32,000 bases of DNA from Coprobacillaceae bacterium (GCA_963675515.1 OY776328.1:1230001-1262000); one strand, 5' to 3'. Counted from the first letter of the stretch, positions 1,834-16,011 are shown. Notes: a model not told the origin generated them from the sequence alone. Translations and numbers: made by a program.

Positions 1834-1855
1834 TAGTACGATAAATTTTAATTTT
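1834..1855 (+). repeat. Island repeat copy 1 (TAGTACGATAAATTTTAATTTT)
   Basis: Near-identical to the copies at 9130, 10444, 12281 and 15991. Intergenic, 164 nt upstream of the 2019 ATG. Confidence 0.9.
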
Positions 1856-2018
1856 ACTTTCAGGTTACCTAAGTACTGAATACAGCAATTACCCGAAAGA
1901 TAAGGATGTTATTTTGGCTGTTACGGAGCGTAACGGCTTCGTTATGGATCGTTTCTTGCATTCAATCAATTCCGTTGATATAGTGAAGTTGCCAATAAAA
2001 AATTAAAGGAGGCAGGAA

Positions 2019-2642
2019 ATGAGTTTTGGAGGAAAAATTAAAAAAGCAAGAATTGAAGCCGGAATGACACAGGAAGAACTTTCAGAAGTGATGATGGTAT
2101 CCCGTGCGGCAATTGCGAAATGGGAAAGTGATCGAGGAATGCCAGATGTACCCAATCTGAAAACAATTGCCGGTGTTCTGAATGTCAGCGTTGATTATCT
2201 GCTTGATGAGGAAGGAACGATAGACCTTTCCGTAACCAGGAAACCAATTGATTTAGGTAAGTATGGTGATTCGGGAAAACTTAGCAGGCTGAAAAAAATC
2301 GAAATTAAGGAAAAGATTATCCGTGAGGAATATCCTGAAGCTGAAATTGTCCGGCTCACCGTAACCAAAATTGAAAATACAAAAGGTGAGAAGATTGCTG
2401 ATGGCTTGGTTGGTTCGCTGGCTCTGGCTCTGGGAGGAATACCACTGTTCGGAACGCAGGAATTTGGTAAAACGATTGGTTCCCTTGATCAGCAGTATTA
2501 TCTGGTTAATTACGGAGACAGACAGAAATTTGTTTTGATTACGGATGAACACCTCATTGCAAGAGAGATGAACAGTACAATCACGGATAAGAAATTTCGC
2601 GTCGGGGACAAAGAATTTTTGACGGTAGGTTTAGTGGATTAA
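2019..2642 (+). CDS. XRE-family helix-turn-helix transcriptional regulator with an uncharacterised C-terminal domain
   Basis: The N-terminus (GKIKKARIEAGMTQEELSEVMMVSRAAIAKWESDRGMPDVPNLKTIAGVLNVSVDYLL) is a typical Cro/C1 HTH. RBS AAAGGAGG lies upstream. Confidence 0.85.
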   Translation: MSFGGKIKKARIEAGMTQEELSEVMMVSRAAIAKWESDRGMPDVPNLKTIAGVLNVSVDYLLDEEGTIDLSVTRKPIDLGKYGDSGKLSRLKKIEIKEKIIREEYPEAEIVRLTVTKIENTKGEKIADGLVGSLALALGGIPLFGTQEFGKTIGSLDQQYYLVNYGDRQKFVLITDEHLIAREMNSTITDKKFRVGDKEFLTVGLVD

Positions 2643-2666
2643 ATAGGAATTTTAAAGGGGACTGTT

Positions 2667-2822
2667 ATGAAAAAAATTTCATTACTATTTAGCATTGTTT
2701 TTTCAATTATGACGTTTATTGGTGTAGGATCCGTTTTTATCAGTAATGTAAGCGCTGGATATGCTGTTATCCCTATGATTTTTGCACTAGTCTGTATAAA
2801 TTCATATCGTAATAGTCAATAA
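2667..2822 (+). CDS. Small hydrophobic protein (51 aa, two predicted membrane spans); not in the ORF track
   Basis: ATG 2667 is preceded by AAAGGGG. Product MKKISLLFSIVFSIMTFIGVGSVFISNVSAGYAVIPMIFALVCINSYRNSQ*. It lies 25 nt after the XRE gene. Confidence 0.55.
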   Translation: MKKISLLFSIVFSIMTFIGVGSVFISNVSAGYAVIPMIFALVCINSYRNSQ

Positions 2823-2847
2823 GTGTTAAGAAGATAAATTTTAATTT
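2822..2847 (+). repeat. Island repeat copy split by a 7-nt insertion (AGTG-ttaagaa-GATAAATTTTAATTT)
   Basis: The 15-nt core GATAAATTTTAATTT is identical to the consensus, and AGTG is present 7 nt upstream. It lies about 150 nt upstream of the STAND gene start. Confidence 0.7.
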
Positions 2848-2996
2848 GTGGCTAAGATAAATAGTTTAAGACCTTTTTGCAATAATGTGCAAAAAATATG
2901 ATCTATTGTTTGGGTCTTAACGAAGAATTGAATAATTATAAATAATGTTATATAAGTCTAGTTTCGTTTTTTACGAATATGAAAGGAGGAGATCGT

Positions 2997-5900
2997 ATGG
3001 GGCTATCAGATGCACATAAGGGGTATGAATACCAAGACTTACTAACCTCATATTTTATTATTGATGATCTTCTCAAATGCAATTCTTCAGAGTTTAAGGT
3101 TGATGTCAAGGAATACAATGATGATAAATTTGACGATCTTACCGTGATAAATAAAAACGGGGTAGTCAAACGACAGATCAAGTATAGTGATAATAAAACG
3201 GTAGCAAAAGATGACTTCTCATCAACAGATTATGACCTTGCACTAGATGTGTTATACAATTCGTGGGAAAAAGCAAAATTGGAACATGAAAGAGATGTAT
3301 CAATAAAAATACTTCTTGCATGGGATTACAATGATGATATTGATTTTTTAGAAGACCTTGGAACAAGCGATGATTTTACTTCCCCAAACGTGAAACAATA
3401 CATGATTAATATTGATAAAATATGGTTTGTGGATGAAGAAAGGCCCATAAGTTCTTGGAGACGGTTAAGAAAAAATGTGGAAAATATATCCAGGGAAAAG
3501 TTTAAAGAATTTCTCCAAGACTTGAAAGTAGAGCTATGTTTACCAAAAGCAAGTTTGGATATTGTAAATCAAGGTGAAATGGAAAGGATTACGGTTGAGT
3601 GTCTAAAGGATTTTGGTGTAGGTACGTATCCGAACAATGAAATATCCCCAGAAGGCGTCCTTCTGAAGTTGATGAACATAGTTAAGAATGCAAGGGCTAA
3701 CCAGAGAATACTAAAAACGGAACAAGTAGTTAGTAGCTTAGGGTTAGTTGTTGGCTATGGAAACATAGAGCAGCTATTTCCTATTGATTCAAGCTGTAAC
3801 ATTTATGACGAAAATATTTTTGATGATTTTTACTCAAATATTCGCGATAACAACAAGACTATATTAATTGGTGAGCCGGGATCAGGGAAATCTTGGTTTG
3901 TTACTAATTTTATCGAATATTTAAAATCAAAAAATATTCTATTTGCTAGGCATTATTGCTATACAAGTTTGGATGATATATTTTATTCTGGTAGAATCAC
4001 GTCCAATATTTTTATGGCAAATTTGATTAACGATATTATACTCGTCTGCCCTGAATTAAAGGACGTAAAGACATCGAGGTTTGGTGTTGACGAAAAGGAA
4101 CTTCAATCACTTATTGATGGAATTGATAAAGAGGTTATTTTGATAATAGACGGGCTTGATCATATCGAGCGAATCAAGTCATTAAATGAATCGGATGTGG
4201 TGGCAAATAAGACTGATATCATAGAGATAATAAAAAGAATAAATGTACCTTCAAAAGTGAAAATTGTTGTTGTATCACAGCCAGTTTCAGAAGTTTTAGA
4301 ATTGCGTAAGCATAATTATAAGCTCACTGAAATTGAAAACTGGGATGAGAAAATAATTGGTAAATACCTCGATAGTAGAAGTATAAGTGCTAATGTGGAA
4401 GTAAATGAAGTGTCATTAAGTAGTTATTTGTTTTCTAAGAGCAACGGGAATCCTTTGTACGTTGCATACTTGGTCAATGAGCTTTCAAAGTCGAGTGCTT
4501 TAGATTCATATGTGGATATCCTTGATTCAATTCCTAATTATAATGCTGGTTTAAAGGGTTACTATAACTATTTGTTGGAACAGATTGATGAAGATCATAA
4601 AGTCGTATATGCATTATCGGGAGCATCTTTTTATTTGAATATTGAAGAACTGATGGTGATAACAGGTTCATCGTATTATTATGTCGAAAAGAGGATAAAG
4701 ATACTTAGAAGCATACTTAGGCTTAGTACCGTAAACGGTGGATTCATCATTTATCATGAAAGTTTCCGACGATATATTCTAGAATTACTAAATTATAATG
4801 GACTGCCAATATTTGACAACGTATATAAAGACCTTATCGTGTGGCTTCAAGATACAGGTGTGTATAATAATATAAAGGCCTACAACAATTTGTTCCGACT
4901 GCTATACGAATCATGTCAGTATGACAGTCTATTGGAATATGCCAACATTGAGTTTTTAAGCGAAAGTTTATTTAGAGGATATGCTTTTGATGTAATAAAG
5001 AAAAATTCAGATTATATTGTGAAAGCTGCGACAAAGAAAAAGTCATTTTCTAAATTAGTAGAGCTTTCAGAGTTGTCCAATATTGTATTGAATGCAGAGT
5101 TTGACTTTGAGATATACGAGGAAAAGTTTTCAACGTGCATTGGTCAGCTACATGGTTTTCAGTGGTTAAGTGAAATGCTTATCTACGAAGGAAAAATGAG
5201 TATGTCCTTAGAGGAAGGACTAAGGGTTTGCTATTCCTGTTCACGTAATTCTGTCACTCCACCATGGAAAAATTATATACATGGTATGCTTGAGAGGAAT
5301 AAAACCTCAGATAATCACCACTATGATGAAATAAAAGAGCATCTAAGATATTATGTAGCATCCGCCATTGATATGGATAACAACCAGAATAGTGTTGTTC
5401 GTTATGTAACAGATAGTGGATACATAGAATACATGAAAATTGTAATGAACGAGTATGTCCATCGAGGCAGACTAGAGGAACTCCTTTCACTTCTTACAGA
5501 AATGGAATTAACTGATCAATGGAGTGGGGTTCTAGAGGGCAATGATAATGAGGGATTAAACGAAGAGTATATAAAAGATGTTTTAAAAACAATTAAAACT
5601 GCTGATAGTATTTATGGTGATACAGAAAGTAAAGTTAAATACTTGATTGCAAATGCTAATAAGATCTATGAAGCATATTCTTTTGATGTAGATGCACTGG
5701 TTGAAGAAATTACTAATTTAAGTTGGTTCCACAACTGGATAGTCTTTGTTTTTCAAAGTTGTGTGCTCGAGAAAAAAAGCAAAATCAAGGGTGATGATTT
5801 AGTAGAACTTTACTCGAATCTAAATCGAGTAACAGCGGTAGCTAACCATAGTATACGTACCATGGATTTATATGGACTAAGACAAGAAATTTATGATACT

Positions 5901-8801
5901 ATTCGAAAACCATTGAGAAATATCATTTTATACAAGTCAGAATGGGAGAAAATTCTTAATATAATTGTTGAATCTTCAAGTAACACAATGGTAACTTTTC
6001 AAAATGCAATGATGGGCCCACTAACGACTGACATGTTATTTAAACTGTTCATAGAAATATCCAATGATGAAAACTTCGACTGTGTGCTAAAGCAATTTGG
6101 TGAGGTGACTGAAGAACAGAAGGCGAGAAGAGTACATGTGGACTTAGCCGATTATTATATGCAAAAGTCTATTTTTCTACATAAGAATGGAAAAGAACAA
6201 CAAGGAATCTGTGAGTTTCGTAATGCTATACAAATGATAATGTCATACGGCCAACATAAAGATAGAACACTTAGTAGGTTAATTGATACAGTTGAAGATA
6301 TTTATGGCATTGATTCAGAAAAAGGTAGAAAGTGTATAAAGCAATTAGGTGCAATGTCCATAGCGGTAACAAGACAAACCGATGGAAAAGAAACAAGTGA
6401 TTATGAGAATGAGTGGTCACAGTTGTTGTGCAAATATGAACCAGAATTGGCATTGAAGAAATTCATTGTTGATTCTGAGATTTATAAACGTTCTTGGATT
6501 TGTGAGAACACACTTAAGAATATACTTACTAATTGTTTCACGCCAAATTACTCAAGAATTGTAAATGCATTGTTTAAGTCCATGCCTAATAAAAGCAATA
6601 GTAATTTTATACAGGCTTATCTAAATAATATTGCTTTGATAGACAAGGAAGAAGAGGTGCTTATGGCAAGGACTTCCGTTATTGATTTGATAAGCAAGTT
6701 TAAATATAACGATTATGCATACGAAATAGAAGAACAATTTATGGAAGCTATAGAATGTTTGTGTGAAAAGTATGATATTGATTGTAATTTGGTTGAAGCG
6801 AAATGTTATCCGGTCGCATCTCATTTTCCTGAAGATAATCGCACCGAAATAATAGAAATGTTTGACGGTAAAGGTATAGATGCGAATAACATATTTGAAG
6901 TCTTGGAATTTATGAAATCATTTGGATATTCTGAAGAGGTTAATAGTGTTATTAAGTCATATCTCGTAAAGACGGAAGAGTTGTCGCAAGAGGTTGTATT
7001 AGTTATTAATCAACTTGTTGATTTTGCTTTTGAAAGTCCGGTATCTAGAAAGTATTCAAACATTCAAGAGAAAGTAATTTGTCTAGGGGAAATTGATGAA
7101 ATTATAGATAGTGTAAGAGCATATCTCAATTTACGAATCTATCTTAGCCATAAGGATGGTTGGTATCGTAAATATGGTAATTATGAGTTTTTCAGGAAGG
7201 CGTACGCTCTAGATAAAAGGTTGGCTATTGATTCTTACTTTAAGTATTTCGAGAACATGTATAAGCCTTTTGAAGGCGTTAACGCTCTATCAGATAACAT
7301 AATAAAAATGCTTTCAGACCTTGATGATTGGCATGGAGAAGCGCTATCTTCATGGGATCTAGTTTATGAAATTATTAATTTTAGATTGAGCTGTAGAGCA
7401 GAAATCGATTGGGGAAAAATTGAAAAGGAATTTGAAGGATACTGTACAGGTGAGTTGTTATATCAAGTGTTATTAACGAGATTGAGATATGGAACAGCAG
7501 ATATACACAGGTCGGTTATTGCCTCTCTTGGAGTATTACTTTCGAAAGATGTGGACCGTAGTATGTTTATAAGACCATTTAAGCGGGTTTTGGTGAATCA
7601 TTCTAAATACATTAATCTGAGCATTGTTATGCTGATTCAGTTGGTTGAAGAAATGTATCCCCATGAAGAAAGGGAGGAATGTCAGCTAGTAGATCTTGAT
7701 GATTACATTTGCATCAATGCAAATGTAAACGAAGGATTCTTATTAAAGTACTTGTTGAATAGCGAGATGGAGGAAATATTGAAACCAAATTTGCAGCCTA
7801 CAGACCAAGTATTCAATGATTTAATTCTTCATGACTTCAAAAATATAGACCAAAGATACAAGTCGCTTGAAGATCGTGGTGTATCGGTTGATGATTATAT
7901 TCTGGGATTTTTCAGTGAAATTTACAGTGAAAGCAACGCGGAAAGTTTAACTGAAACATATTTGGACAAAGTATCTAGTCTATTGATGGATAATATCCAG
8001 ATTCATAGTGATTACCTAAGGGCTATTGGGAATGCCGCTATAAATTATTTATGTAGTGGAAAAGAAAGTGGGAGCGTATTTGCAAAGTTACAAAATCTTG
8101 AAGATAAAGATTATTTTTACCACAGTATTAGAGAAGATGTATTAATGCTAAATGCAATTAATAATTCGGCAATAGCAAGGCCCAATGTAATACCTCGCCC
8201 GACAGCTGTAACGAATGGCATGTCAAATGTGGATAAAGGGGATTGGATTAGGTTAGCATATATTGAGCGAGAATATTTGTATTCGGAAGATTTATGGCGA
8301 GTAAAACGAATTGGTGATAACTGCAAGATTTATCAGACTTGCTCTGCTGTGGGTTTCGGGAAGAGCAACAAGTTGCCTTTATATCATAATTCCTATAGAG
8401 GTTCAGTCCTTGATCATATCTATCCTAAATACATGTGTAATAGAATGGGACTTAAGGATAGAGAAATAGTTACTTTTACGAATGCAATAATGGGATACAA
8501 CCAATTTTTGACATATTATCGATATGATTATGTAGCGCTTACTATTGAAGTTCTAAGTCTATTAGAAATTACAATGAGAAGTACTAAGACAGGTTTGATT
8601 GGAATGGATTCAACAGGTAAATGCGTTCTCAAGTATCAAAATTGGTGTACTTATAAACATTTGACTGGTGAAGAGGAAAGAACGCCTGTATTAAGAGGGA
8701 GTCAACTTCTTGTATCAAAAGAGACCTTCGATAAGTTAATTAGAGAAGTTGGACACAAGCCATATTGTCATACCAAAAGTACATTAATTTTTGGTGAATA
8801 A
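2997..8801 (+). CDS. Giant STAND (NACHT-like) P-loop NTPase with N-terminal Cap4/DUF4297-like PD-(D/E)xK nuclease domain and ~1,400-aa helical C-terminal region; Avs/bNACHT-like antiphage candidate
   Basis: The likely start is ATG 2997, 7 nt after AAAGGAGGA; the track start 2979 lies in the RBS. N-terminus: HKGYEYQD...FDDLTVINKNG.VKRQIKY (GxxYQ, D, QxK). Walker A: LIGEPGSGKSWF. Walker B: VILIIDGLDHIE, the NACHT-type hhhhDGLDE. The remainder is long and helix-rich. Confidence 0.8.
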   Translation: MGLSDAHKGYEYQDLLTSYFIIDDLLKCNSSEFKVDVKEYNDDKFDDLTVINKNGVVKRQIKYSDNKTVAKDDFSSTDYDLALDVLYNSWEKAKLEHERDVSIKILLAWDYNDDIDFLEDLGTSDDFTSPNVKQYMINIDKIWFVDEERPISSWRRLRKNVENISREKFKEFLQDLKVELCLPKASLDIVNQGEMERITVECLKDFGVGTYPNNEISPEGVLLKLMNIVKNARANQRILKTEQVVSSLGLVVGYGNIEQLFPIDSSCNIYDENIFDDFYSNIRDNNKTILIGEPGSGKSWFVTNFIEYLKSKNILFARHYCYTSLDDIFYSGRITSNIFMANLINDIILVCPELKDVKTSRFGVDEKELQSLIDGIDKEVILIIDGLDHIERIKSLNESDVVANKTDIIEIIKRINVPSKVKIVVVSQPVSEVLELRKHNYKLTEIENWDEKIIGKYLDSRSISANVEVNEVSLSSYLFSKSNGNPLYVAYLVNELSKSSALDSYVDILDSIPNYNAGLKGYYNYLLEQIDEDHKVVYALSGASFYLNIEELMVITGSSYYYVEKRIKILRSILRLSTVNGGFIIYHESFRRYILELLNYNGLPIFDNVYKDLIVWLQDTGVYNNIKAYNNLFRLLYESCQYDSLLEYANIEFLSESLFRGYAFDVIKKNSDYIVKAATKKKSFSKLVELSELSNIVLNAEFDFEIYEEKFSTCIGQLHGFQWLSEMLIYEGKMSMSLEEGLRVCYSCSRNSVTPPWKNYIHGMLERNKTSDNHHYDEIKEHLRYYVASAIDMDNNQNSVVRYVTDSGYIEYMKIVMNEYVHRGRLEELLSLLTEMELTDQWSGVLEGNDNEGLNEEYIKDVLKTIKTADSIYGDTESKVKYLIANANKIYEAYSFDVDALVEEITNLSWFHNWIVFVFQSCVLEKKSKIKGDDLVELYSNLNRVTAVANHSIRTMDLYGLRQEIYDTIRKPLRNIILYKSEWEKILNIIVESSSNTMVTFQNAMMGPLTTDMLFKLFIEISNDENFDCVLKQFGEVTEEQKARRVHVDLADYYMQKSIFLHKNGKEQQGICEFRNAIQMIMSYGQHKDRTLSRLIDTVEDIYGIDSEKGRKCIKQLGAMSIAVTRQTDGKETSDYENEWSQLLCKYEPELALKKFIVDSEIYKRSWICENTLKNILTNCFTPNYSRIVNALFKSMPNKSNSNFIQAYLNNIALIDKEEEVLMARTSVIDLISKFKYNDYAYEIEEQFMEAIECLCEKYDIDCNLVEAKCYPVASHFPEDNRTEIIEMFDGKGIDANNIFEVLEFMKSFGYSEEVNSVIKSYLVKTEELSQEVVLVINQLVDFAFESPVSRKYSNIQEKVICLGEIDEIIDSVRAYLNLRIYLSHKDGWYRKYGNYEFFRKAYALDKRLAIDSYFKYFENMYKPFEGVNALSDNIIKMLSDLDDWHGEALSSWDLVYEIINFRLSCRAEIDWGKIEKEFEGYCTGELLYQVLLTRLRYGTADIHRSVIASLGVLLSKDVDRSMFIRPFKRVLVNHSKYINLSIVMLIQLVEEMYPHEEREECQLVDLDDYICINANVNEGFLLKYLLNSEMEEILKPNLQPTDQVFNDLILHDFKNIDQRYKSLEDRGVSVDDYILGFFSEIYSESNAESLTETYLDKVSSLLMDNIQIHSDYLRAIGNAAINYLCSGKESGSVFAKLQNLEDKDYFYHSIREDVLMLNAINNSAIARPNVIPRPTAVTNGMSNVDKGDWIRLAYIEREYLYSEDLWRVKRIGDNCKIYQTCSAVGFGKSNKLPLYHNSYRGSVLDHIYPKYMCNRMGLKDREIVTFTNAIMGYNQFLTYYRYDYVALTIEVLSLLEITMRSTKTGLIGMDSTGKCVLKYQNWCTYKHLTGEEERTPVLRGSQLLVSKETFDKLIREVGHKPYCHTKSTLIFGE

Positions 8802-8896
8802 GTCTATGTATATTGGTATAAAAACTGTTTATAACGGGTGCATGTATTGTTACACTCTTATCTTCGATTGGATGTATATTTTCATGATAATAGTTT

Positions 8897-8916
8897 GTGA
8901 CGATATGTTTTTAATT
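8897..8916 (+). repeat. Degenerate island repeat copy (GTGaCGATATgTTTTTAATT)
   Basis: Aligns to the consensus with two single-nt insertions or substitutions. It lies about 95 nt downstream of the STAND gene stop. Confidence 0.45.
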
Positions 8917-9129
8917 GTTAAGCCATAGAACGTTTACACTTTTTTACCACCAAAACGCTGGCTAACGTATCAACATAAATATGGGTTTAGGTGAGAGTGG
9001 AGAGAAAATACCCGTTATGAAAATTGACAATCAAGCTTAGTATGATACATCAGGCAAATAATTCATCTATAGGGATAGGCAAAGTTGAAATGGGCACATT
9101 TTATAAGTAAACATTGAAGCGATTTAATT

Positions 9130-9150
9130 TAGTGCGATAAATTTTAATTT
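9130..9150 (+). repeat. Island repeat copy 2 (TAGTGCGATAAATTTTAATTT), fused in frame to the hsdS remnant
   Basis: The repeat translates as SAINFNL and runs directly into LEQAASIF..., the central conserved region of HsdS. Confidence 0.9.
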
Positions 9151-9801
9151 ATTGGAACAAGCCGCTTCTATTTTTGGAGATATGATACGGTCTAAAGAAA
9201 AGAACGGAACTATCGGTTACTATTGTAAAATTAAATCAGGGTTTGCATTCAAAAGTTCTTAGTGGACTGACGAGGGAGTAAAAGTAATAAAAATCGGTGA
9301 TATTAATCAAGATTATCTTGATTTGAACTCTTGTTCACATGTTGATGAGGATAAGCTTGAAAAGGCTAGAGATTTTCTAGTTGGAGCAGGAGATTTAGTA
9401 TTAGCTATGACCGGTGCAACAATTGGCAAATTTGCAATGATTCCTAAAAAAAATGAAGTGATGGTCGTCAATCAACGTGTTGGTAAATTCTTTTTAGGAG
9501 ACACTCCACTGAAAAGAACTCCTTTTATTTACTGCACTTTAAAACAAGATGAAGTTTACAATGAAGTTATTTCCAGGGGACAAGGGAGTGCACAACCTAA
9601 TGTAAGTGCAAAGATATTATGACTATTCCTTGTGTAATTCCTGAGCAAGATGAGATTGATCAGTTTAATGGTATCGCACAGCCGATGTTTACAACAATTT
9701 CACAGAATCAAAATGAGAATGAACAACCAGCAAATTTAAGAGATAGTATTTTGCCAAAACTAATGAGCGGTGATTTAGATATTTCAGATTTAGAAATTTA
9801 G
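9131..9801 (+). pseudogene. hsdS: Type I restriction-modification specificity subunit, half-gene remnant (central conserved region + one target recognition domain + C-terminal conserved region) with one in-frame stop and one frameshift
   Basis: LEQAASIFGDMI...SGFAFKSS, then in-frame TAG 9260-9262. The TRD follows (GVKVIKIGDI...GDLVLAMTGATIGKFAMI...VNQRVGKF...RGQGSAQPNVS). There is a 1-nt frameshift near 9609-9620. After it comes IPCVIPEQDEI...LRDSILPKLMSGDLDISDLEI*, the typical HsdS C-terminus. Confidence 0.85.
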
Positions 9802-9830
9802 TAAGATGAATCTTAATAAGGGGTGAGATA

Positions 9831-10424
9831 ATGATTTTTAATATGCCGAATATTGATTTAGAGGATGAAGAGTGGATTTACATATTGATAAAAATATTAA
9901 AAAGTTGGACTGAAATTCCACTGAATATTACTAGTGGATACGACACTGATAATTTGAAATTTTATGATGGAATAATAGGATCATTAATAAGGCAAACAGA
10001 AGAGCTCTATAAAGATTTTCCAGAACATTTAGATATGAACTTTGTGAATTCTTGGAAATATCAAGGTAAAATATATAGGGTATTACATTCTAGAGGTGTA
10101 GCTGATGATACAAATGATGATGGGTATTCTCTCTCGCTTCCTGACGTAGAATATCATGGTATGGTTTCTCATTGGACAACAGATTATACATTTGATGCAT
10201 TATTATATAAGTTGAGTAGCAAGGCTGAATATATTATTTTGGAAGCTGATACCAAGGAGCATTTTGCATTTGATGTGAATTGTTTTAGAGAAAGATATAA
10301 ATGTTCAGAAATGTATACTCAAAATGAAGAAGAAATTATTTTTCCTATGTATAAAGACTGCATAACAGAATACCGTATGACAATAGAAGAATTCATTAAG
10401 ATCAAAAACAACGAAAATAATTAA
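9831..10424 (+). CDS. Hypothetical protein with R-S-E-type ADP-ribosyltransferase-like motifs (candidate toxin/effector)
   Basis: 197 aa, RBS AAGGGGTGAG. Ordered motifs are KIYRVLHSRG (R83), MVSHWTTD (S113/T116-T117) and QNEEEIIFP (E166-x-E168 followed by I-I-F-P). Their spacing of 30 and 53 aa is compatible with C3/VIP2-type ART folds. Confidence 0.35.
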   Translation: MIFNMPNIDLEDEEWIYILIKILKSWTEIPLNITSGYDTDNLKFYDGIIGSLIRQTEELYKDFPEHLDMNFVNSWKYQGKIYRVLHSRGVADDTNDDGYSLSLPDVEYHGMVSHWTTDYTFDALLYKLSSKAEYIILEADTKEHFAFDVNCFRERYKCSEMYTQNEEEIIFPMYKDCITEYRMTIEEFIKIKNNENN

Positions 10425-10443: not shown

Positions 10444-10465
10444 TAGTGCGATATATTTTAATTTT
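10444..10465 (+). repeat. Island repeat copy 3 (TAGTGCGATATATTTTAATTTT)
   Basis: One mismatch to the consensus. It ends 14 nt before ATG 10479. Confidence 0.9.
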
Positions 10466-10478: not shown

Positions 10479-10910
10479 ATGGCAGAAATAAAAAAAATAA
10501 TGATAAAAGGTGCATCTGGATATTGTCACATTGATGAATCCTTCGAGGATAAGGTGAGTATTACACCAACGTCTATTGAATATGAGTATGTTCCTCATAC
10601 AGAAACAGAGATAAATACTAAGAGGAAATGGAGCTATAGAACTGATAGCCCGATTTTTAAGAAGTTGTATAGTGATATAGTGGAAATGATTCCAGAGATT
10701 ATTGTTAGAGAAGTCACGGATACTTGCTTGGATATTGGTGGGATTGAATTTTATATTACATATTCAGACAATTAAAAATTCAAGGAGATCTATTGGGTAC
10801 CCGGCGATTACTTTAAAGAACTATTTAAAACTATCAAACGATTAGTTCCTGAATGTGAATATACGCCAACGGTACTTTTAACCTCTGAAGATTATAATGA
10901 TGAGGAGTGA
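10479..10910 (+). pseudogene. Hypothetical gene with an in-frame TAA (10773-10775); unknown function
   Basis: MAEIKKIMIKGASGYCHIDE...FYITYSDN* continues in the same frame as KFKEIYWVPGDYFKELFKTIKRLVPECEYTPTVLLTSEDYNDEE* to TGA 10908-10910. Confidence 0.5.
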
Positions 10911-10939: not shown

Positions 10940-10991
10940 AGTATACTGATATGCTTAATATCCACGTCAAATCTTATTTTGGAGGAATAAC

Positions 10992-12206
10992 ATGGGAGAA
11001 ATAATAAATAATAATGATTCTAGTGCGGTTGAGATCGTTAGAAGAGAAAACGATTTAATAGAACTTACAGAGGGGATTCTGCACGATGTTCGTGCAAATA
11101 TAAATAGTAAGAAAACTTTAAGCGTACCAATTTCAGAGATGTCGACTTTAGGTGCGGGGGTGTCATCACTTATTCCAGCATTGAACACTGTCACACAGAC
11201 AACCACTTTTGCCACAGATGGATTATATCAATTAGCTAATGCGGATGTCGGTGATGTTCTGAAGGTTGCGAAAAACGGTAACTTCTGGGGAGCTTTTAAG
11301 ACGGCTGATGGCGCATCAAAATTCACACAGCTTCAATCCGTGGACGCGTTGTCTGCGACAACTACAACAACGGCTGCTATTAACCCTGCTATAATGTTAA
11401 TGTCAGTAGCACTTTTCTCAATTGAAAAAGAGCTTGGTAATATTGCAGAAATGGAGAAGCAAATTATATCATTCCTGGAAGTTGAAAAGGAGTCAGAAAT
11501 CGAAGCTGATGTAGAAACATTGATGAATATTGTCACGAAATATAAGCTCAACTGGGATAATGAACATTTCGCTGCTAGTAATCATAAGCTGATATTGGAT
11601 ATTCAAAGAACCGCCAGAAAAAACATGAATGCATATCAGAAGAAGGTTAATGAGGCTCTTAAAGCGAAACAATTCATTATCGTTCGGAATAAGGTGAATT
11701 CAACATTATCTGACTTTGAGAAGAAATTCAAATATTATAGATTATCACTTTACACGTTCTCTTTGGCATCACTGATGGAAATAATGTTGAGTGGTAATTT
11801 TAAAGAAGAATATATCTTAGGGATAAAGAATGAGATAAGACAAATGTCACAAACCTATAGGAACTTATTTGGAGAGTGTTCGATTCGTCTTGAAAAGATG
11901 GGTAACTCCGCACTGGAAGCAAATTTGGTAAAAGGATTGGGTACTGCGGGCACAGCTGCTGGAAAGTTCATCGGTAATATCCCTCTTGTTAAGGAGGGAC
12001 CGGTTGATGAGTTTCTTCAAGATAAAGGCGCTAATTTAAAAAACAATGCTATAGGGATGGAAAAAAAATCTGTCGGGGTATTTGCGGCAATAGGCAATCC
12101 GGGTACAGGCATGCTTATTGAAAAATTGGAGAATATGATTCAGATTTATAACCATACTTCGCAGATATACTTTGATAAGGAAAAAATATATTTAATGGCA
12201 AATTAG
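10992..12206 (+). CDS. Hypothetical 404-aa protein, Gly/Ala/Thr-rich N-terminal third, one hydrophobic segment, coiled-coil-like centre
   Basis: Strong RBS GGAGGA 7 nt upstream. The long ORF has coding-like composition. I recognise no family motif. Confidence 0.6.
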   Translation: MGEIINNNDSSAVEIVRRENDLIELTEGILHDVRANINSKKTLSVPISEMSTLGAGVSSLIPALNTVTQTTTFATDGLYQLANADVGDVLKVAKNGNFWGAFKTADGASKFTQLQSVDALSATTTTTAAINPAIMLMSVALFSIEKELGNIAEMEKQIISFLEVEKESEIEADVETLMNIVTKYKLNWDNEHFAASNHKLILDIQRTARKNMNAYQKKVNEALKAKQFIIVRNKVNSTLSDFEKKFKYYRLSLYTFSLASLMEIMLSGNFKEEYILGIKNEIRQMSQTYRNLFGECSIRLEKMGNSALEANLVKGLGTAGTAAGKFIGNIPLVKEGPVDEFLQDKGANLKNNAIGMEKKSVGVFAAIGNPGTGMLIEKLENMIQIYNHTSQIYFDKEKIYLMAN

Positions 12207-12280: not shown

Positions 12281-12302
12281 TAGTACGATAAATTTTAATT
12301 TT
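12281..12302 (+). repeat. Island repeat copy 4 (TAGTACGATAAATTTTAATTTT)
   Basis: Identical to copy 1. It lies about 70 nt before the left end of the IS1595-family element. Confidence 0.9.
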
Positions 12303-12372
12303 TAAGAATAAATGGGAAATTCTTACTTGCAACAGGCTGTAATGATAATATGAGGATAACAGAAGGAATAAA

Positions 12373-13538
12373 ATCCGAAAATTTGGCTATGTTAGCCCAA
12401 AGCAATGCTTTCATAGATGAAGCCTGTTCCAATATAATTTTCTCGCCTAAAATCACAATGGCATTGATAAATATCCACAAAATAATCATGGACGTCTCTA
12501 GCTCTTGTTTCAATCATGTATGCTATGTACGCCAGATATTCATTAAGGTATTTAGAAGATATCCCATTGTGTTTTTTCATATACTTTTCAATTTGAGAAT
12601 GCACGTAATTGACGTGATTTATGTGGTAGATTCCTCGCTTTGCCTTGCTTTTTGCTGGAAACGCATAATGGTCGATTTTCAGACTCTCACTTAATCTTCG
12701 ATATACGAATAATCCATCCGTACAAAGCGTTGTTGCTTTTTGAAGGTGTTTCAGATATACAGCGGTTGTCGTTTCGTTATCAAGCGTTGTCGATCCGATC
12801 TTAGCGACCTTGAGTAATATATGGCCGTTCCTGTCAACCGCGCTTGCTATTTGTACGGCATCGGTTATATTTTGATCTTTCTTGTCTCTACGGTTACCTT
12901 TTCGTCCTCTTTTATAGGGCTTCCTGGGTAATGGTTTTGCCGCCTGTTTACTGTGATTCCCGGAATAACTGATGTTTACGCTCATTTCATCTAATTCCAC
13001 AATCCCGCTAAGCTCAACGTTTTCCATCCTGTGAGCTAGCGCGTTCAATATTTTATGGCGCATGAAAAAACTGCATTTTAACGACACTCCTGCATATTTG
13101 GCACAGTCCCTCAAATCTTCGTCATGGCTCATTATTATCAGATACTTAAGCCAGGTTATATAAGAAAGTTTGGTATTCTCCAAAATTGTACCAACATACG
13201 GAGTAAAAGTTTTACCGCAATCAATGCATCTAAAACGTTGTGTTTTGTTTTTGTAGTGGCCATCTCGTTTAATATGATGGTGACCGCAACGAGGGCACGA
13301 AATTGAATCGTTGTGTTTGGCTTCTAATGCATCCACAAGGATCTTGGTGTAATCATTTAGAAGTTGACGGTCCTGAATGAAAACAATTAGGGCGTTTAAA
13401 TCATCGCTGTTTAAAGTATCCAGTTCATTCTTAATTTTTTCTAATTCCATGGTTATCCCACCTCTTCTCTATTATACACCTAATTCTACAGGAAAAGTCG
13501 ATAAACATCTTTATGGGCTAACATAGCCGAAAATTTGG
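12373..13538 (-). mobile_element. IS1595-family insertion sequence
   Basis: Single transposase ORF flanked by inverted repeats: ccgaaaatttGGCTATGTTAGCCCA (12373-12397) and TGGGCTAACATAGCCgaaaatttgg (13514-13538). The inner 15 nt are perfect. The outer limits are approximate. Confidence 0.75.
12392..13450 (-). CDS. IS1595-family (ISXO2-like) DDE transposase with N-terminal zinc ribbon
   Basis: CPRCGHHHIKRDGHYKNKTQRFRCIDCGKTF zinc ribbon; VELDEMSV, CTDGLFVYRRL and HINHVNYVHSQIEKYM match the IS1595 DDE/HxxVNH pattern. Confidence 0.85.
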   Translation of the reverse strand: MELEKIKNELDTLNSDDLNALIVFIQDRQLLNDYTKILVDALEAKHNDSISCPRCGHHHIKRDGHYKNKTQRFRCIDCGKTFTPYVGTILENTKLSYITWLKYLIIMSHDEDLRDCAKYAGVSLKCSFFMRHKILNALAHRMENVELSGIVELDEMSVNISYSGNHSKQAAKPLPRKPYKRGRKGNRRDKKDQNITDAVQIASAVDRNGHILLKVAKIGSTTLDNETTTAVYLKHLQKATTLCTDGLFVYRRLSESLKIDHYAFPAKSKAKRGIYHINHVNYVHSQIEKYMKKHNGISSKYLNEYLAYIAYMIETRARDVHDYFVDIYQCHCDFRRENYIGTGFIYESIALG

Positions 13539-13716
13539 TTCAAATATTAGAGATAGCACTAGGTGACAATTTATAGAAAGCCATTGTAGTTGTGTGTTAC
13601 CGTTCATTTATAAAATTGAAACAGTTAATTGGATTTACTATCAACCAATTGAACTTCTGTTTAATGATGAAAACTTGTCTATAATTACTAATGAAATTAA
13701 TTTAAGGGGCAAAAAT

Positions 13717-14874
13717 ATGAGTAAATTCTGGAGAAAATTTTTTATGGCATCAGCTATGGCTGCCAACGAATTTTTTAATGAAATAGATAGCAGTACATCT
13801 AGGAAAAAAAGTAAACAAGAGTGCTTTGAAGCAATTGGCGAGAGTTCACAAAATATGTTCAAAGTTCTATCTGATAGACTAGGGCTCAATAATGCCCCTT
13901 CAATATCTGAAAATCTTATTAATGGTATAACCCAAATGCCATTATACTGTGTAAGGTTAATCTTAGAAAAACAAAAAAATGATATGAGTATAGAACAAAG
14001 TCAGGCATTAAATCTGTACTTTGATAATTTTAGTTACCCATACACAATAAGTGATTTTTCAAAATCAATCAAGTATGAGAATCAGGTCGCAAAAGAGTGC
14101 TACGAATTATTAGCCATTGACAATGATTGCGCAGGTCTGTTCTGGAAAGATTTTTTTAGAGAGATCCAAAACAGGGGTGATTGTTACGAAATTATTGACG
14201 AATTTATTCAAGAGTTCTCTAACTGTGCTATAAATTTTTCATTACTCGGAAATAATAGCAATGATTTAGCTATTGGGATATTAACTAATCTAATAAATTC
14301 CATATACGATCAGTTTGTGATATTCGAGGATAAATTGGAAAAAAACATTGAAATAGTAGCAGATGCAAATTATTTTGACCATCTCAATAATATGGACAGT
14401 GAAATCCATATTATTGAGGCATTAAGTAATTGTCAAGAAGAAGGACTAGATCTTCTTGAATTATATGAATATTTCTGTATGGGGATATTTTATTTAGTAA
14501 TAAATGAGGGCATCTGTGCACAAGCAGAAAAATATGATATTTTTGATCAAACTGTTTCCTTTTGCAATAAGGAATTTGGATTTAATGGTAAAGAAATATT
14601 TGACAGCTTTAAATATGCTGAGGGGTTGGGACCACTTATTTTAAATATGGTTAGTACGGAATTTGACAATAACTTTTGGGTACTATTGGCAACAGTAATC
14701 AATAAGTGTACCTTGCTATGTGGATATGAGTCTGGAATGATAAAGGAATGTATTGATTTTGTTATCGGATTAGATCAAACATTATGTATTGAATATCCAA
14801 ATTCAGGTTATGGCAATTTTGCCAGAAAATACGCACAAAACTGTTTGGAGCAAATTCTAGAAGTTTGTAACTAA
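13717..14874 (+). CDS. Hypothetical 385-aa protein, helix-rich and Cys-rich, unknown function
   Basis: The likely start is ATG 13717, preceded by AAGGGGC. The track start 13594 is a TTG/GTG-type extension reaching toward the IS end. Confidence 0.6.
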   Translation: MSKFWRKFFMASAMAANEFFNEIDSSTSRKKSKQECFEAIGESSQNMFKVLSDRLGLNNAPSISENLINGITQMPLYCVRLILEKQKNDMSIEQSQALNLYFDNFSYPYTISDFSKSIKYENQVAKECYELLAIDNDCAGLFWKDFFREIQNRGDCYEIIDEFIQEFSNCAINFSLLGNNSNDLAIGILTNLINSIYDQFVIFEDKLEKNIEIVADANYFDHLNNMDSEIHIIEALSNCQEEGLDLLELYEYFCMGIFYLVINEGICAQAEKYDIFDQTVSFCNKEFGFNGKEIFDSFKYAEGLGPLILNMVSTEFDNNFWVLLATVINKCTLLCGYESGMIKECIDFVIGLDQTLCIEYPNSGYGNFARKYAQNCLEQILEVCN

Positions 14875-14910
14875 ATAATCTAATCTATAAATGCGAAGTT
14901 TGGAAAGTGG

Positions 14911-14930
14911 AGTGTGATATAATAATTTTG
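14911..14930 (+). repeat. Degenerate island repeat copy (AGTGtGATAtaatAATTTTg)
   Basis: 8 of the first 9 nt and the terminal AATTTT match the consensus. It lies 13 nt upstream of ATG 14943. Confidence 0.35.
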
Positions 14931-14942
14931 ATGAGGGGCAAT

Positions 14943-15404
14943 ATGGATATTAGTTTTAGAAAAATAGATAAATCAAATTATAACGAATGCGTGACTTTAA
15001 AGGTAGGAAATCACCAAACCAACTATGTTGCAAGTAATGCTTTCTCACTAGTACAGGCGTTTTATGAAAATGAATTGTATCCGTTGGGAATATATGCCGC
15101 TGATGAGATGGTGGGATTCCTATTATATGATTATGATCAAGAGCTTAAGGGATGGTCTTTTTCAAGATTTATGATCGATACCAAGTTTCAAAACAAGGGA
15201 TTTGGATCAAAAGCTTTGAGTGATTTTTTAGAATTTTTTCATATTAAATTTCCTGATGAAGATCTATATACAAGTGTGGAAATAGACAATGAAATTGCCA
15301 TTAAGCTGTATGAAAAACATGGGTTTACTAAAATAAATTCCTTTGAATATACAATTGGAGATACTTGTTATAAAGAATTTAGGATGCAGAAAAAATTTGT
15401 GTAG
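14943..15404 (+). CDS. GNAT-family N-acetyltransferase
   Basis: MDISFRKIDKSNYNEC...RFMIDTKFQNKGFGSKALSDF...AIKLYEKHGFTK, i.e. GNAT motif A (Q/RxxGxG/A) and motif B. The start was chosen at the internal ATG after GAGGGG. Confidence 0.8.
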   Translation: MDISFRKIDKSNYNECVTLKVGNHQTNYVASNAFSLVQAFYENELYPLGIYAADEMVGFLLYDYDQELKGWSFSRFMIDTKFQNKGFGSKALSDFLEFFHIKFPDEDLYTSVEIDNEIAIKLYEKHGFTKINSFEYTIGDTCYKEFRMQKKFV

Positions 15405-15427
15405 TATACATATAAAATTTTAATAAA
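15402..15427 (+). repeat. Degenerate island repeat copy (TAGTAtaCATATAAAATTTTAATaaa)
   Basis: Aligns to the consensus with small indels. Its TAG is the stop codon of the GNAT gene. It lies 25 nt upstream of ATG 15453. Confidence 0.35.
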
Positions 15428-15452
15428 TGAAACAAGAAGGGAAATATAGAAT

Positions 15453-15926
15453 ATGAGTGACCTAGCTAGAATGACATTTAAGCAAAAAATTGAGAAAGCA
15501 AAAGATAAGAATATTTGCCTTCCTTATGATTTATTAAACGGAGATACAGTAGGTATTTATAAATTCTTTAGAATTAAAGATAATGAGGAATACTGCTTTT
15601 ATATTGGTAAATCCACAGATATTGTATCTAGACTGTTGGGCGCCAGTAGTGGTCATATCTATATGTTTCTAAAAAATGACTTATCAAAAGTGGTGCCGTT
15701 AAAAATAAATGAATACCTTAATGAAGGGTTTAATATAAAAGTGGAAGTGGTCAAAATTGATTATTCGGATATTTCTTTTTGTAATGCAGCACATAGGCTA
15801 GCTTTAGCTGAACTTCAAGAGATAGTTAAATATCAAGAAAAAGGGCAATGTCAATTTCAAGTACCAGAAGGTACGGGAGCATATGAAGAAAAATTTTGGC
15901 AAGAAAACTATAAAAAACTGTGTTGA
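15453..15926 (+). CDS. GIY-YIG nuclease-superfamily protein (stand-alone, 157 aa)
   Basis: VGIYKFFRIKDNEEYCFYIGKSTDIVSRLLGASSGH contains GIY, an ~11-aa spacer, YIG, then R and H as in GIY-YIG catalytic cores. Confidence 0.6.
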   Translation: MSDLARMTFKQKIEKAKDKNICLPYDLLNGDTVGIYKFFRIKDNEEYCFYIGKSTDIVSRLLGASSGHIYMFLKNDLSKVVPLKINEYLNEGFNIKVEVVKIDYSDISFCNAAHRLALAELQEIVKYQEKGQCQFQVPEGTGAYEEKFWQENYKKLC

Positions 15927-15990
15927 ATTATAGCATTATAAGGGGGTAATTGATTTTAAGTATTATACAAGTTCGATAAATATATAATTC

Positions 15991-16011
15991 TAGTACGGTA
16001 AATTTTAATTT
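15991..16011 (+). repeat. Island repeat copy 5 (TAGTACGGTAAATTTTAATTT)
   Basis: One mismatch to the consensus. It is preceded by a related degenerate unit, GTTCGATAAATATATAATT (15971-15989), and lies 80 nt upstream of ATG 16091. Confidence 0.9.

What the first reader, a model, noticed from the sequence alone, without database searches (positions are those of the whole stretch)
1834..16011. Island-specific 21-nt direct repeat (TAGTRCGATAAATTTTAATTT) at the 5' boundary of almost every gene unit: candidate cassette array inside a type I R-M locus
There are five near-identical copies in the same orientation, at 1834, 9130, 10444, 12281 and 15991, each with at most 1-2 mismatches. One further copy is split by a 7-nt insertion (2822-2847). 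Four degenerate copies lie at 8897, 10925, 14911 and 15402.

Each copy sits in an intergenic gap just 5' of the next gene or gene pair. By eye I found no copy on either strand between 16.1 and 32 kb. The sequences flanking the repeat are unrelated, so these are not pieces of a larger duplication or a MITE.

Distance to the downstream start codon varies: 14 nt (10479), about 80 nt (16091), about 150 nt (2997) and 164 nt (2019). That fits poorly with a fixed promoter geometry.

The copy at 9130 reads in frame (SAINFNL-LEQAAS...) into the central conserved region of the hsdS remnant. This is the position where half-hsdS cassettes are exchanged in phase-variable type I systems.

The units delimited by the repeat are functionally unrelated: the STAND NTPase, the half hsdS plus ART-like gene, unknowns, the GNAT and the GIY-YIG gene. 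This pattern would be expected if a short site-specific recombination target, integron-like or shufflon-derived, were accreting defence or toxin cassettes. The alternative is a common operator for one regulator, for example the XRE protein at 2019. No recombinase other than IS transposases is present in the window.
Basis: partly seen in the sequence, partly recalled or inferred. Interest (0 to 1): 0.85.

Follow-up and report, generated by a model that had tools for sequence, protein, structure and literature searches.

The report
Gene-cassette array inside a restriction-modification locus
A 21-base repeat that separates unrelated genes upstream of a type I restriction gene is most likely the crossover site of a recombinase that belongs to this family of restriction loci. 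If so, the locus works as an integron-like platform that collects and swaps defence-type genes in Clostridia-type bacteria.

Summary
The repeat is real. There are six copies of TAGTRCGATAAATTTTAATTT, all on the + strand between 1834 and 16011, where 0.02 are expected by chance. A decayed seventh copy lies at 9799.

In 185,579 species genomes the exact motif occurs only in one family of type I R-M loci. These are arranged hsdM, XerA-type tyrosine recombinase, hsdS, motif, hsdR, and the motif's TAG is the hsdS stop codon. Some relatives are "empty", with hsdS, motif and hsdR adjacent. Others carry arrays of unrelated genes in one direction, separated by motif copies. These genes include TIR, caspase-like, HEPN, GIY-YIG, GNAT and STAND types.

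The same cassette occurs with different neighbours. A sister strain differs from the window exactly from copy 15991. Homology breakpoints fall in a 6-bp spacer (TTTTAA) between inverted arms (GATAAA/TTTAT).

Copy 9130 is fused to the hsdS midpoint, which carries a related, DNA-invariant site.

The closest known system is the pneumococcal tvr locus, where hsdS halves move by excision and reintegration at direct repeats. Non-hsdS cargo is the new feature.

The window shows no recombinase, and recombination itself is inferred. Confidence is about 0.65.

The parts
1834..1854 (+). Site copy 1 (TAGTACGATAAA-TTTTAA-TTT), a perfect copy. It lies 164 nt before the XRE gene.
   Evidence: 32.1 bits
1855..2826 (+). 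Unit 1: XRE/HTH_3 regulator (2019-2642) plus a 51-aa membrane peptide (2667-2822).
2827..2847 (+). Site copy 2. The left arm is diverged (TAAGAA); GATAAA-TTTTAA-TTT is intact.
   Evidence: 19.4 bits; null maximum 14.9
2848..9129 (+). Unit 2: 1934-aa STAND/NACHT-like NTPase (2997-8801).
9130..9150 (+). Site copy 3, a hybrid. It has the tail-type left arm and spacer, fused in frame (AINFNLLEQ) to the central conserved region of hsdS.
9151..9801 (+). C-terminal half of hsdS (second target-recognition domain and tail). It is broken by a stop and a frameshift.
9799..9819 (+). Decayed tail-end site (5 mismatches). Its TAG is the hsdS stop codon.
9831..10424 (+). 197-aa gene of unknown function. It shares unit 3 with the hsdS half.
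   Evidence: no family match
10444..10464 (+). Site copy 4. It lies 14 nt before the ATG at 10479.
   Evidence: 27.9 bits
10465..12280 (+). Unit 4: 98-aa gene (10479-10775) and 404-aa gene (10992-12206), both without family match.
12281..12301 (+). Site copy 5, a perfect copy.
12375..13538 (-). IS1595-family insertion sequence inside unit 5. Inverted repeats lie at 12375-12410 and 13503-13538.
13594..15926 (+). Rest of unit 5: 426-aa unknown gene, GNAT acetyltransferase (14907-15404), and a 157-aa gene with a GIY...YIG motif seen by eye but no HMM hit.
15991..16011 (+). Site copy 6. Homology with the sister-strain contig L039 starts here.
16012..16942 (+). Unit 6: 81-aa and 159-aa genes directly upstream of hsdR. 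The unit is shared with L039.
16943..19972 (+). hsdR, intact. It is the right-hand anchor of the array and is 87-89% identical to HsdR of Pectinatus and Vallitaleaceae loci that carry the motif.
309..1578 (-). IS3-family element that interrupts a further upstream gene. The left end of the array is therefore outside or beyond this point.

Best explanation
**What the repeat is.** The 21-nt repeat is the tail-end recombination site of a family of type I restriction-modification loci. These loci are built hsdM, XerA-type tyrosine recombinase, hsdS, site, hsdR.

**Site anatomy, read from the sequences.** A strong left arm (TAGTRC)GATAAA is followed by a 6-bp spacer TTTTAA and a weak right arm TTTAT. 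The arms GATAAA and TTTAT(C) are inverted repeats. The TAG at the start of the site is the hsdS stop codon.

**Proposed action (inferred).** The model follows the pneumococcal tvr locus. The recombinase exchanges strands across the spacer. DNA between two direct copies can then leave as a circle carrying one site and re-enter at any other copy.

**What has happened in this family.** The sites bracket not only hsdS halves but also unrelated, mostly promoter-less cargo genes. All cargo points the same way as the operon. The result is an array of cassettes between hsdS and hsdR.

**The window's array.** It has at least six units over more than 14 kb and looks partly frozen:
- hsdM, the recombinase and the first half of hsdS are not in view.
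- One site is fused to the hsdS midpoint.
- The native hsdS tail site has decayed.
- Two IS elements have inserted.
For: **Shown**
1. *Specificity.* The canonical motif occurs in 10 places in 185,579 species genomes, all in this R-M family. In 8 of them it starts at the hsdS stop codon.
2. *Linked recombinase.* A 312-342-aa tyrosine recombinase lies between hsdM and hsdS, or between two hsdS genes, in L014/L012, L023, L025, L028, L034, L036 and L051. L019 holds a remnant. It passes the NCBIfam XerA model at 248 bits against a cut-off of 220.
3. *Empty and occupied alleles.* L022, L025, L036 and L051 have hsdS, site and hsdR adjacent. L005, L012, L019, L024, L028, L032, L034, L041 and the window carry cargo there.
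4. *Same cassette, different neighbours.* The 232-aa gene is 97% identical between L015 and L032, with unrelated DNA on both sides. L032 and L034 are 95% identical from a site rightwards and unrelated leftwards. Compared with L051, L028 has a 460-bp cassette inserted at the site, flanked by a perfect copy and a degenerate copy. The window and sister-strain contig L039 (HsdR 97% identical) are 95% identical from window position 16000, inside copy 15991. Upstream, L039 has a TIR gene instead.
5. *Breakpoint position.* Informative differences place all breakpoints at motif positions 12-19. That is the 6-bp spacer flanked by inverted arms.
6. *Midpoint site.* All intact hsdS genes of the family encode INRNL as (G)ATAAA-TAGGAA-TTT, invariant even at synonymous positions. 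Copy 9130 is a tail/mid hybrid.
7. *Covariation.* The closest recombinase relative (69% identical, L051) has this motif. The 74 more distant relatives (56-65%) have a different but related sequence after hsdS, TAAGCYGCTAAATTNTYGTTTAT.
8. *No alternative signals.* There is no sigma-70-like promoter at any copy, no terminators between units, and no Rfam family.

**Known.** At the pneumococcal tvr locus, TvrR drives excision and reintegration at direct midpoint and tail-end repeats (PMC6265443).
Against: - No recombinase is visible in the 32-kb window. DNA upstream of the window could not be reached.
- No circular intermediate or recombinase activity has been observed. Everything rests on comparative sequence.
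- Several cargo blocks are not flanked by two good sites: L005 and L012 have one site each, and L041 has 3 sites for 13 genes. Either sites decay quickly or some cargo entered another way.
- The midpoint (TAGGAA), tail (TTTTAA) and hsdM-proximal (TTGTGA) sites have different spacers. That would normally hinder a tyrosine recombinase from crossing between the classes, yet copy 9130 is such a hybrid.
- Recombination at a 21-bp patch of identity by the general recombination machinery would leave the same breakpoints.
Confidence: 0.66

Rival explanations
1. The motif is a shared expression signal: a promoter for an unusual sigma factor, an operator, or a 5'-leader element. It drives hsdR in the basic locus and has been kept in front of each inserted gene. 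The breakpoints at the motif would then reflect only occasional homologous recombination at the one shared sequence.
For: - Copies lie upstream of genes, often 11-30 nt before a ribosome-binding site and start codon.
- The motif sits directly before hsdR in empty loci.
- It contains an inner dyad (ATAAATT-TT-AATTTAT), as operators do.
- A regulator that binds repeats in a type I R-M promoter with embedded defence genes is known: RptR (PMC12255303).
Against: - No -35/-10 pair is called at any copy, and nothing upstream of position 1 is conserved.
- When the start codon is 11-14 nt after the motif, the motif would have to contain the transcription start itself.
- The only regulator in the window, the XRE protein, has no homologue in the other arrays.
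- RptR's site, TAGCTA, is absent.
- An expression signal explains neither the conserved TAG stop codon nor the DNA-invariant midpoint relative inside hsdS.
- It also does not explain covariation with the recombinase clade.
Confidence: 0.15
2. The copies are passive relics. Repeated duplication of the hsdS-tail/hsdR-leader segment, together with RecA-dependent or illegitimate recombination between type I loci, spread the sequence. It has no dedicated enzyme or present function.
For: - L015 shows a longer duplication: about 110 nt of a HEPN gene's 3' end plus the site.
- hsdS-tail relics occur beside sites in L028.
- Many sites are decayed.
- At tvr, some excision persists without TvrR.
Against: - The 21-mer is kept at 0-1 mismatches across Negativicutes, Vallitaleaceae and Lachnospiraceae, while the adjacent hsdS codons vary at synonymous positions.
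- Conservation stops sharply at both edges.
- Breakpoints cluster in the spacer.
- 21 bp is below the usual minimum for efficient RecA recombination (established knowledge).
Confidence: 0.12
3. The copies are ends of a small non-autonomous transposable element (MITE) or IS-related element, or attachment scars of an unrelated integrase such as the serine recombinase in L035 or the truncated Tn916-type integrase next to the L015 array.
For: - IS3 and IS1595 elements lie in the island.
- Other recombinase genes lie near two arrays.
Against: - All copies are direct, with no terminal inverted partner and no target-site duplication.
- The IS ends are different sequences.
- The L035 serine recombinase element sits inside hsdS, not at the motif.
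- The L015 integrase is a different, truncated family and is absent from the other arrays.
Confidence: 0.03

Closest known systems
[quoted passage not shown] 2018, PMC6265443)
   Same: - A type I locus in which a tyrosine recombinase gene lies between hsdM and hsdR.
- Direct repeats all in one orientation, one kind at the hsdS midpoint and one just after the hsdS tail, sharing a core.
- '2+2' layouts with a full hsdS on each side of the recombinase (L028, L014/L012, L051).
- Segments between repeats behave as movable units.
   Different: - At tvr, only hsdS halves and the recombinase/toxin-antitoxin module move.
- Here the repeats also bracket unrelated cargo genes, in arrays of up to at least 14 kb.
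- The tail repeat here is 21 nt, not about 70 bp.
- Sequence relatedness to TvrR or the TER repeat was not tested.
- No experimental evidence exists for this family.
hsdS 'epigenetic invertons' (type I loci with invertases such as PsrA/CreX, BfiA, EfiA; Huang et al. 2020, PMC7672463)
   Same: - Recombinase relatives that are 56-65% identical sit in such loci.
- Those loci carry a related sequence right after the hsdS stop, TAAGCYGCTAAATTNTYGTTTAT. Its complement encodes the central INxNL of HsdS.
- The L. salivarius and Lactococcus plasmid loci named in that paper are hits to the recombinase.
   Different: - There the repeats are inverted and switch specificity by inversion.
- Usually there are two copies and no cargo arrays.
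- In the window all copies are direct.
Integrons (IntI, attI, attC cassette arrays; defence cassettes in sedentary chromosomal integrons, bioRxiv 10.1101/2024.07.02.601686)
   Same: - Arrays of compact genes in one orientation, largely without promoters, separated by a recombination site.
- The same cassette is found in different arrays.
- The platform sits next to a tyrosine recombinase gene.
- Cargo is rich in defence-type domains.
   Different: - The recombinase fails the integron-integrase models (74.5 bits against a cut-off of 265).
- The site is a short, sequence-conserved duplex site, not a folded and sequence-variable attC.
- The platform is an R-M operon.
- The hosts are Bacillota, where integrons are essentially unknown (established knowledge).
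Defence genes embedded in type I R-M operons (DarTG2 in the EPEC RptR island, PMC12255303; PrrC and rlo genes, from my own knowledge)
   Same: Unrelated defence genes sit between hsd genes and are probably co-transcribed with them.
   Different: Those cases have single fixed insertions. No repeated junction site and no linked recombinase have been described for them.
pdif modules of Acinetobacter plasmids (XerC/XerD sites flanking resistance modules; from my own knowledge, not checked here)
   Same: Short Xer-type sites (arm, 6-bp spacer, arm) bound discrete gene modules, and the modules recur in different contexts.
   Different: - pdif sites alternate in orientation and use the host XerCD.
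- Here the sites are direct and the locus has its own XerA-type enzyme.

Membership tests
tvr-like (excision-reintegration) type I R-M locus | A tyrosine recombinase gene embedded in the hsdM...hsdR locus | tested here: inconclusive
   Present in homologous loci L014/L012, L023, L025, L028, L034, L036 and L051. Absent from the 32-kb window. DNA upstream of the window could not be reached.
tvr-like (excision-reintegration) type I R-M locus | Direct repeats in one orientation at the hsdS tail end and at the hsdS midpoint, sharing a core | tested here: met
   The tail site is TAGTRCGATAAA-TTTTAA-TTTAT and the midpoint site is (G)ATAAA-TAGGAA-TTT. They have the same arms and the same orientation. 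Copy 9130 is a tail/mid hybrid.
tvr-like (excision-reintegration) type I R-M locus | Units between repeats change position or content between related loci | tested here: met
   L015/L032, L032/L034, L028/L051 and window/L039.
tvr-like (excision-reintegration) type I R-M locus | Recombinase-dependent circular intermediates | not testable with these tools
   This needs PCR or long reads. No circular contig was seen among the four metagenome hits.
tvr-like (excision-reintegration) type I R-M locus | Recombinase homologous to TvrR (clade 2 of Huang et al.) | not tested
The paper's repeat sequences are held only as images.
Integron | IntI-type integrase | tested here: not met
   TIGR02249 scores 74.5 bits against a cut-off of 265. 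NF011946 scores 39 against 435. The best model is XerA-type NF040815.
Integron | attC sites that fold as single-stranded imperfect hairpins | tested here: not met
   Folding the sites with 25-nt flanks as single-stranded DNA on either strand gives z-scores from -1.3 to +1.5. The conserved part is only 21 nt.
Integron | Array of co-oriented, mostly promoter-less cassettes | tested here: met
   All genes except the IS elements are on the + strand. There are no terminators between units and no excess of promoters. Starts lie 11-30 nt after sites in many cassettes.
hsdS inverton (shufflon) | Inverted repeats in oppositely oriented hsdS genes | tested here: not met
   All window copies are direct, and there is a single hsdS half. 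An inverted, related site after hsdM exists only in relatives.
Sigma-70-type promoter | -35 and -10 hexamers at 16-18 nt spacing | tested here: not met
   None of the 62 promoter-like calls coincides with a copy, and the total is below the shuffle mean. Nothing is conserved upstream of the motif.
MITE / IS end | Terminal inverted repeats and target-site duplication | tested here: not met
   The copies are direct with unrelated flanks. The IS3 and IS1595 ends are different sequences.

The most novel reading that the evidence does not exclude
A Gram-positive functional counterpart of the integron.
- The platform is a type I R-M operon.
- Its own XerA-type recombinase plays the integrase.
- A 23-bp duplex site (arm, TTTTAA, arm), derived from the conserved centre of hsdS, plays both attI and attC.
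- Promoter-less defence or toxin cassettes (TIR, caspase-like, HEPN, STAND, GIY-YIG, GNAT) are captured, expressed from the hsd promoter, and exchanged between Clostridia and Negativicutes.
- A second insertion point lies after hsdM.
Probability: 0.45. Interest if true: 0.85.

Novelty: new variant of a known kind. Interest (0 to 1): 0.72.

Why it matters
How defence islands are assembled is largely unexplained outside integrons and phage satellites. Integrons are essentially absent from Bacillota.

If a recombinase that normally shuffles hsdS halves also files unrelated genes between hsdS and hsdR, several things follow:
- It gives a concrete, testable mechanism for accretion and exchange of defence genes in gut and anaerobe Clostridia.
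- It links phase-variable R-M systems to defence-island formation.
- It supplies a simple sequence flag, the 21-mer next to hsdS or hsdR, for finding compact candidate defence genes. Most cassettes seen here have no known family.
- Insertions would separate hsdR from the hsdMS promoter, so array length may tune restriction.

Tried and rejected
**Look-ups that found nothing**
- Exact-protein look-ups of HsdR (with the wrong start), XRE, STAND (both starts) and the 197-aa, 157-aa and 81-aa cassette proteins returned nothing. As a result, the DNA upstream of the window and the organism's name stayed out of reach. The cluster look-up gave no accession or name.
- The metagenome scan yielded only 4 loci.
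- The viral scan of the motif gave 2 chance hits.

**Readings considered and rejected**
- *ComX/SigH-type -10 box.* TACGATAA resembles TACGAATA, but this was recalled from memory. I dropped it because no upstream T-tract or cognate sigma factor was seen and the breakpoint data point elsewhere.
- *Operator for the XRE protein.* Rejected because that protein is absent from the other arrays.
- *RptR-type control.* Rejected because its TAGCTA site is absent.
- *attC-like folding.* Rejected.
- *Known RNA family.* None found.
- *Known defence systems among the window cassettes.* None found; only generic HTH hits for XRE.
- *The truncated integrase next to the L015 array as the cognate enzyme.* Rejected because it belongs to a different family.
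- *Arrays of the related site in the 74 inverton-type relatives.* Only one locus had 3 copies.

**Not available**
- The pneumococcal MPR/TER sequences could not be compared, because they exist only as figure images.
Full report
**1. The observation**

A search for TAGTRCGATAAATTTTAATTT with up to three mismatches finds six matches, all on the + strand. They lie at 1834, 2827, 9130, 10444, 12281 and 15991, against 0.02 expected from shuffles.

A weight matrix built from 32 distinct copies in 16 loci scores them at 19-32 bits. The best score in shuffled windows is 11-15 bits. There is no hit on the - strand and none after 16011.

Alignment of the copies with 80-nt flanks shows no similarity outside the motif. 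Across all 32 copies, information content falls to background at positions 0 and 22.

Their gapped scores are 10.5 or less, while shuffles give 44-56 hits of at least 9.

The sequence at 9799, TAGTAAGATGAATCTTAATAA, begins with the stop codon of the hsdS remnant.

**2. The setting**

From left to right, the island contains:
- an IS3 element that interrupts a gene running in from the window start;
- an XRE regulator plus a 51-aa membrane peptide;
- a 1934-aa STAND NTPase;
- the C-terminal half of hsdS plus a 197-aa gene;
- two genes of unknown function;
- an IS1595 element followed by a 426-aa gene, a GNAT gene and a GIY-YIG-like gene;
- two small genes;
- an intact hsdR.

The six sites therefore delimit six units, not single genes. 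No hsdM, no hsdS first half and no recombinase is in the window. No cassette matches a known defence system, and no Rfam family is present.

**3. Where else the motif occurs**

A scan of one genome for each of 185,579 species gave 25 loci for a slightly relaxed pattern.
- Matches with other bases at the two free positions are scattered through unrelated phyla and look like chance.
- The canonical sequence occurs only in Bacillota: Pectinatus, Vallitalea/Vallitaleaceae, Lachnospiraceae, Acetatifactor and Clostridiales MAGs.
- In eight of these places the motif's TAG is the stop codon of hsdS (...LMSGELDVSDLDI*).

All-against-all protein comparison shows that these loci are one type I R-M family. 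The order is hsdM (504 aa), a 312-342-aa protein, hsdS, motif, and hsdR of about 1010 aa. The window's HsdR is 87-89% identical to the Pectinatus and Vallitaleaceae proteins.

The 312-342-aa protein is a tyrosine recombinase (Phage_integrase plus SAM-like N-domain). It passes the NCBIfam XerA-type model and fails the integron-integrase models.

**4. Empty and filled sites**

In L022, L025, L036 and L051, hsdS, the motif and hsdR follow each other within about 30 nt.

In other loci, genes lie between the motif and hsdR, often separated by further motif copies:
- L015 has five copies in 2 kb.
- L032/L033 has five copies.
- L034 has four copies.
- L024 has three copies.
- L041 has hsdS, a ThsB-like TIR gene, a caspase-like peptidase and eleven more genes before hsdR, with three good copies.

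The cargo includes HEPN, SAM methyltransferase, GIY-YIG, GNAT and TIR domains, and many genes with no family match.

All cargo points the same way as the hsd genes. Start codons often follow the motif by 11-30 nt. The window has no terminator-like sites between units and no sigma-70-like promoter at any copy.

**5. Do differences begin and end at the repeat?**

Yes, in every comparison that could be made.
- The 232-aa gene is 97% identical in L015 and L032 with unrelated DNA on both sides. Identity starts inside one motif copy and ends inside the next.
- L032 and L034 are 95% identical from a motif copy through hsdR and unrelated to its left.
- Relative to L051, L028 has a 460-bp cassette inserted at the site. 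A perfect copy lies on its left and a degenerate copy (GGGGATAAAGTTTAATTGTAT) on its right, which is the pattern expected of insertion by site-specific recombination.
- L039 comes from a sister strain of the window's organism. Its HsdR is 97% identical and the same response-regulator and kinase genes lie downstream. It matches the window at 95% from window position 16000, inside copy 15991, to the contig end. Upstream it has a TIR-domain gene where the window has the GIY-YIG-like gene.

Informative base differences place all these breakpoints between motif positions 12 and 19.

**6. Anatomy of the site**

Positions 7-12 (GATAAA) and 19-23 (TTTAT, often TTTATC-like) are inverted repeats around a 6-bp spacer, TTTTAA (positions 13-18). 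Positions 1-6 (TAGTRC) extend the left arm. Two arms around a 6-8-bp overlap region is the usual layout of a tyrosine-recombinase core site (established knowledge). The breakpoints fall in that spacer.

Two relatives of the site exist.
- *Midpoint site.* Every intact hsdS of the family encodes its central INRNL as (G)ATAAA-TAGGAA-TTT, identical even at synonymous positions. Window copy 9130 has the tail-type left arm and spacer joined to the midpoint right flank (TTTattgga, as in L005). It therefore reads AINFNLLEQ in frame with the hsdS half. In L012 and L028, hsdS is split by a tandem duplication of the midpoint site.
- *hsdM-proximal site.* Just after hsdM, loci L019, L023, L034 and L036 carry GATAAA-TTGTGA-TTTATCGGACTA, which has the strong arm inverted. 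In L036 a DUF697 gene is inserted within it.

**7. Covariation**

Of 75 viral-contig loci that encode relatives of the recombinase, only the closest (L051, 69% identity) has this motif. There it occurs twice, in an hsdS, site, recombinase, hsdS, site, hsdR layout.

The others (56-65% identity) have a related but different sequence after hsdS, TAAGCYGCTAAATTNTYGTTTAT. It occurs on both strands, and its complement encodes INxNL. These are inverton-type loci, and arrays are not seen there.

**8. Comparison with what is known**

*Pneumococcal tvr locus.* It has hsdM, hsdS halves, a recombinase module, further hsdS halves and hsdR. It carries direct midpoint (about 18 bp) and tail-end (about 70 bp) repeats that share a core. 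TvrR drives excision of circles and their reintegration (PMC6265443). The present family matches that design, including the "2+2" layouts.

*Survey of recombinase-linked type I loci.* A survey (PMC7672463) describes invertons and notes rare direct-repeat cases, but no non-hsdS cargo. My searches found no description of cargo arrays at such loci. The library holds only open-access papers, so this is not proof of absence.

*Integrons.* The system is not an integron. The integrase models fail and the sites do not fold like attC.

**9. Explanation and limits**

The best reading is that the repeat is the tail-end crossover site of the family's recombinase, and that the window holds a large, partly decayed cassette array between a broken hsdS and hsdR.

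What is shown:
- the distribution of the motif;
- its linkage to the recombinase;
- empty and occupied alleles;
- shared cassettes;
- the position of the breakpoints.

What is inferred:
- that the recombinase acts on the site;
- that units move as circles;
- that cargo is transcribed from the hsd promoter.

Points against:
- No recombinase is in view.
- Several cargo blocks lack a second site (L005, L012, L041).
- The three site classes have different spacers.
- Recombination at a short identical patch by general pathways would leave similar scars.

The rivals are an expression signal, passive relics and a transposon end. I rate them at 0.15, 0.12 and 0.03.

Noticed in passing
L034 (oriented) 5891-5911; L023 5079-5101; L019 and L036 6272-6296; relic in L022: A second conserved site lies directly after the hsdM stop: GATAAA-TTGTGA-TTTATCGGACTA. 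It has the same arms as the 21-mer but with the long arm inverted, so the recombinase-hsdS module is bounded by inverted 12-nt arms. In L036 a DUF697 GTPase-like gene is inserted within this site, and TGATTT(A/G)T is present at both junctions.
   Followed up: partly
hsdS midpoints of all family loci, e.g. L005 501-521 and L028 (oriented) 2095-2115; window 9130: INRNL in the central conserved region of HsdS is always encoded as ATAAATAGGAATTT, with no synonymous variation in 17 genes. This suggests a DNA-level constraint. In L012 and L028, hsdS is split by a 23-bp tandem duplication of this sequence.
   Followed up: partly
L042-L111 (viral contigs), directly after hsdS stop codons: Recombinase relatives at 56-65% identity sit in inverton-type loci. 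Their hsdS genes are followed by TAAGCYGCTAAATT(C/A)TYGTTTAT on both strands, and its reverse complement encodes INxNL. The tail-end sites of the two subfamilies look like diverged versions of one ancestral site.
   Followed up: partly
window 15966-15990: A site-like sequence (GTTCGATAAATATATAATTC) abuts copy 15991. It could be a decayed tandem site, but its score (12 in the gapped search) is at background level.
   Followed up: no
window 22717-24641: The FtsX-type ABC permease downstream of the two-component system is split by a frameshift (ORFs 22696-24219 and 24234-24641). The same gene is a single 641-aa product in the related contig L001.
   Followed up: no
window 26668-31570: An agr-like quorum-sensing set (AgrB, a GHKL histidine kinase and a LytTR response regulator, on the - strand) lies next to a radical-SAM/PqqD-domain gene. 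This suggests a peptide-signal or RiPP locus.
   Followed up: no
window 1-315 and 1620-1750: The IS3 element (about 309-1578) appears to interrupt a gene that runs in from the window start. The array therefore probably continues upstream of the window.
   Followed up: partly
L039 6582-6611 versus window 13500-13529: The sister-strain contig ends in the terminal 30 nt of the same IS1595 element, here inside the histidine-kinase gene. The IS is therefore active or multi-copy in this species.
   Followed up: no
L040 and L041 (one 2.57-Mb genome, ERZ21878204 ctg9560c): One genome carries two paralogous hsdR loci (91% and 90% identical to the window's HsdR). One has a 9-kb array starting with TIR and caspase-like genes, and a KAP NTPase cut by an IS3 downstream. 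The other has an OLD-type ATPase and a UvrD-helicase (Gabija-like) region riddled with IS3 copies upstream of hsdR.
   Followed up: no
L036 13283-23042: The empty-site R-M locus L036 lies beside a prophage-like replication module (ImmA/HTH pair, SNF2 helicase, family A DNA polymerase, primase-polymerase). Many recombinase relatives also come from viral contigs. The R-M family may travel on or next to phages.
   Followed up: no
window 2997-8801: The 1934-aa STAND/NACHT-like NTPase has only weak P-loop matches and no PADLOC or NCBIfam family. It is preceded by its own XRE regulator unit and is a candidate new Avs-like sensor.
   Followed up: no
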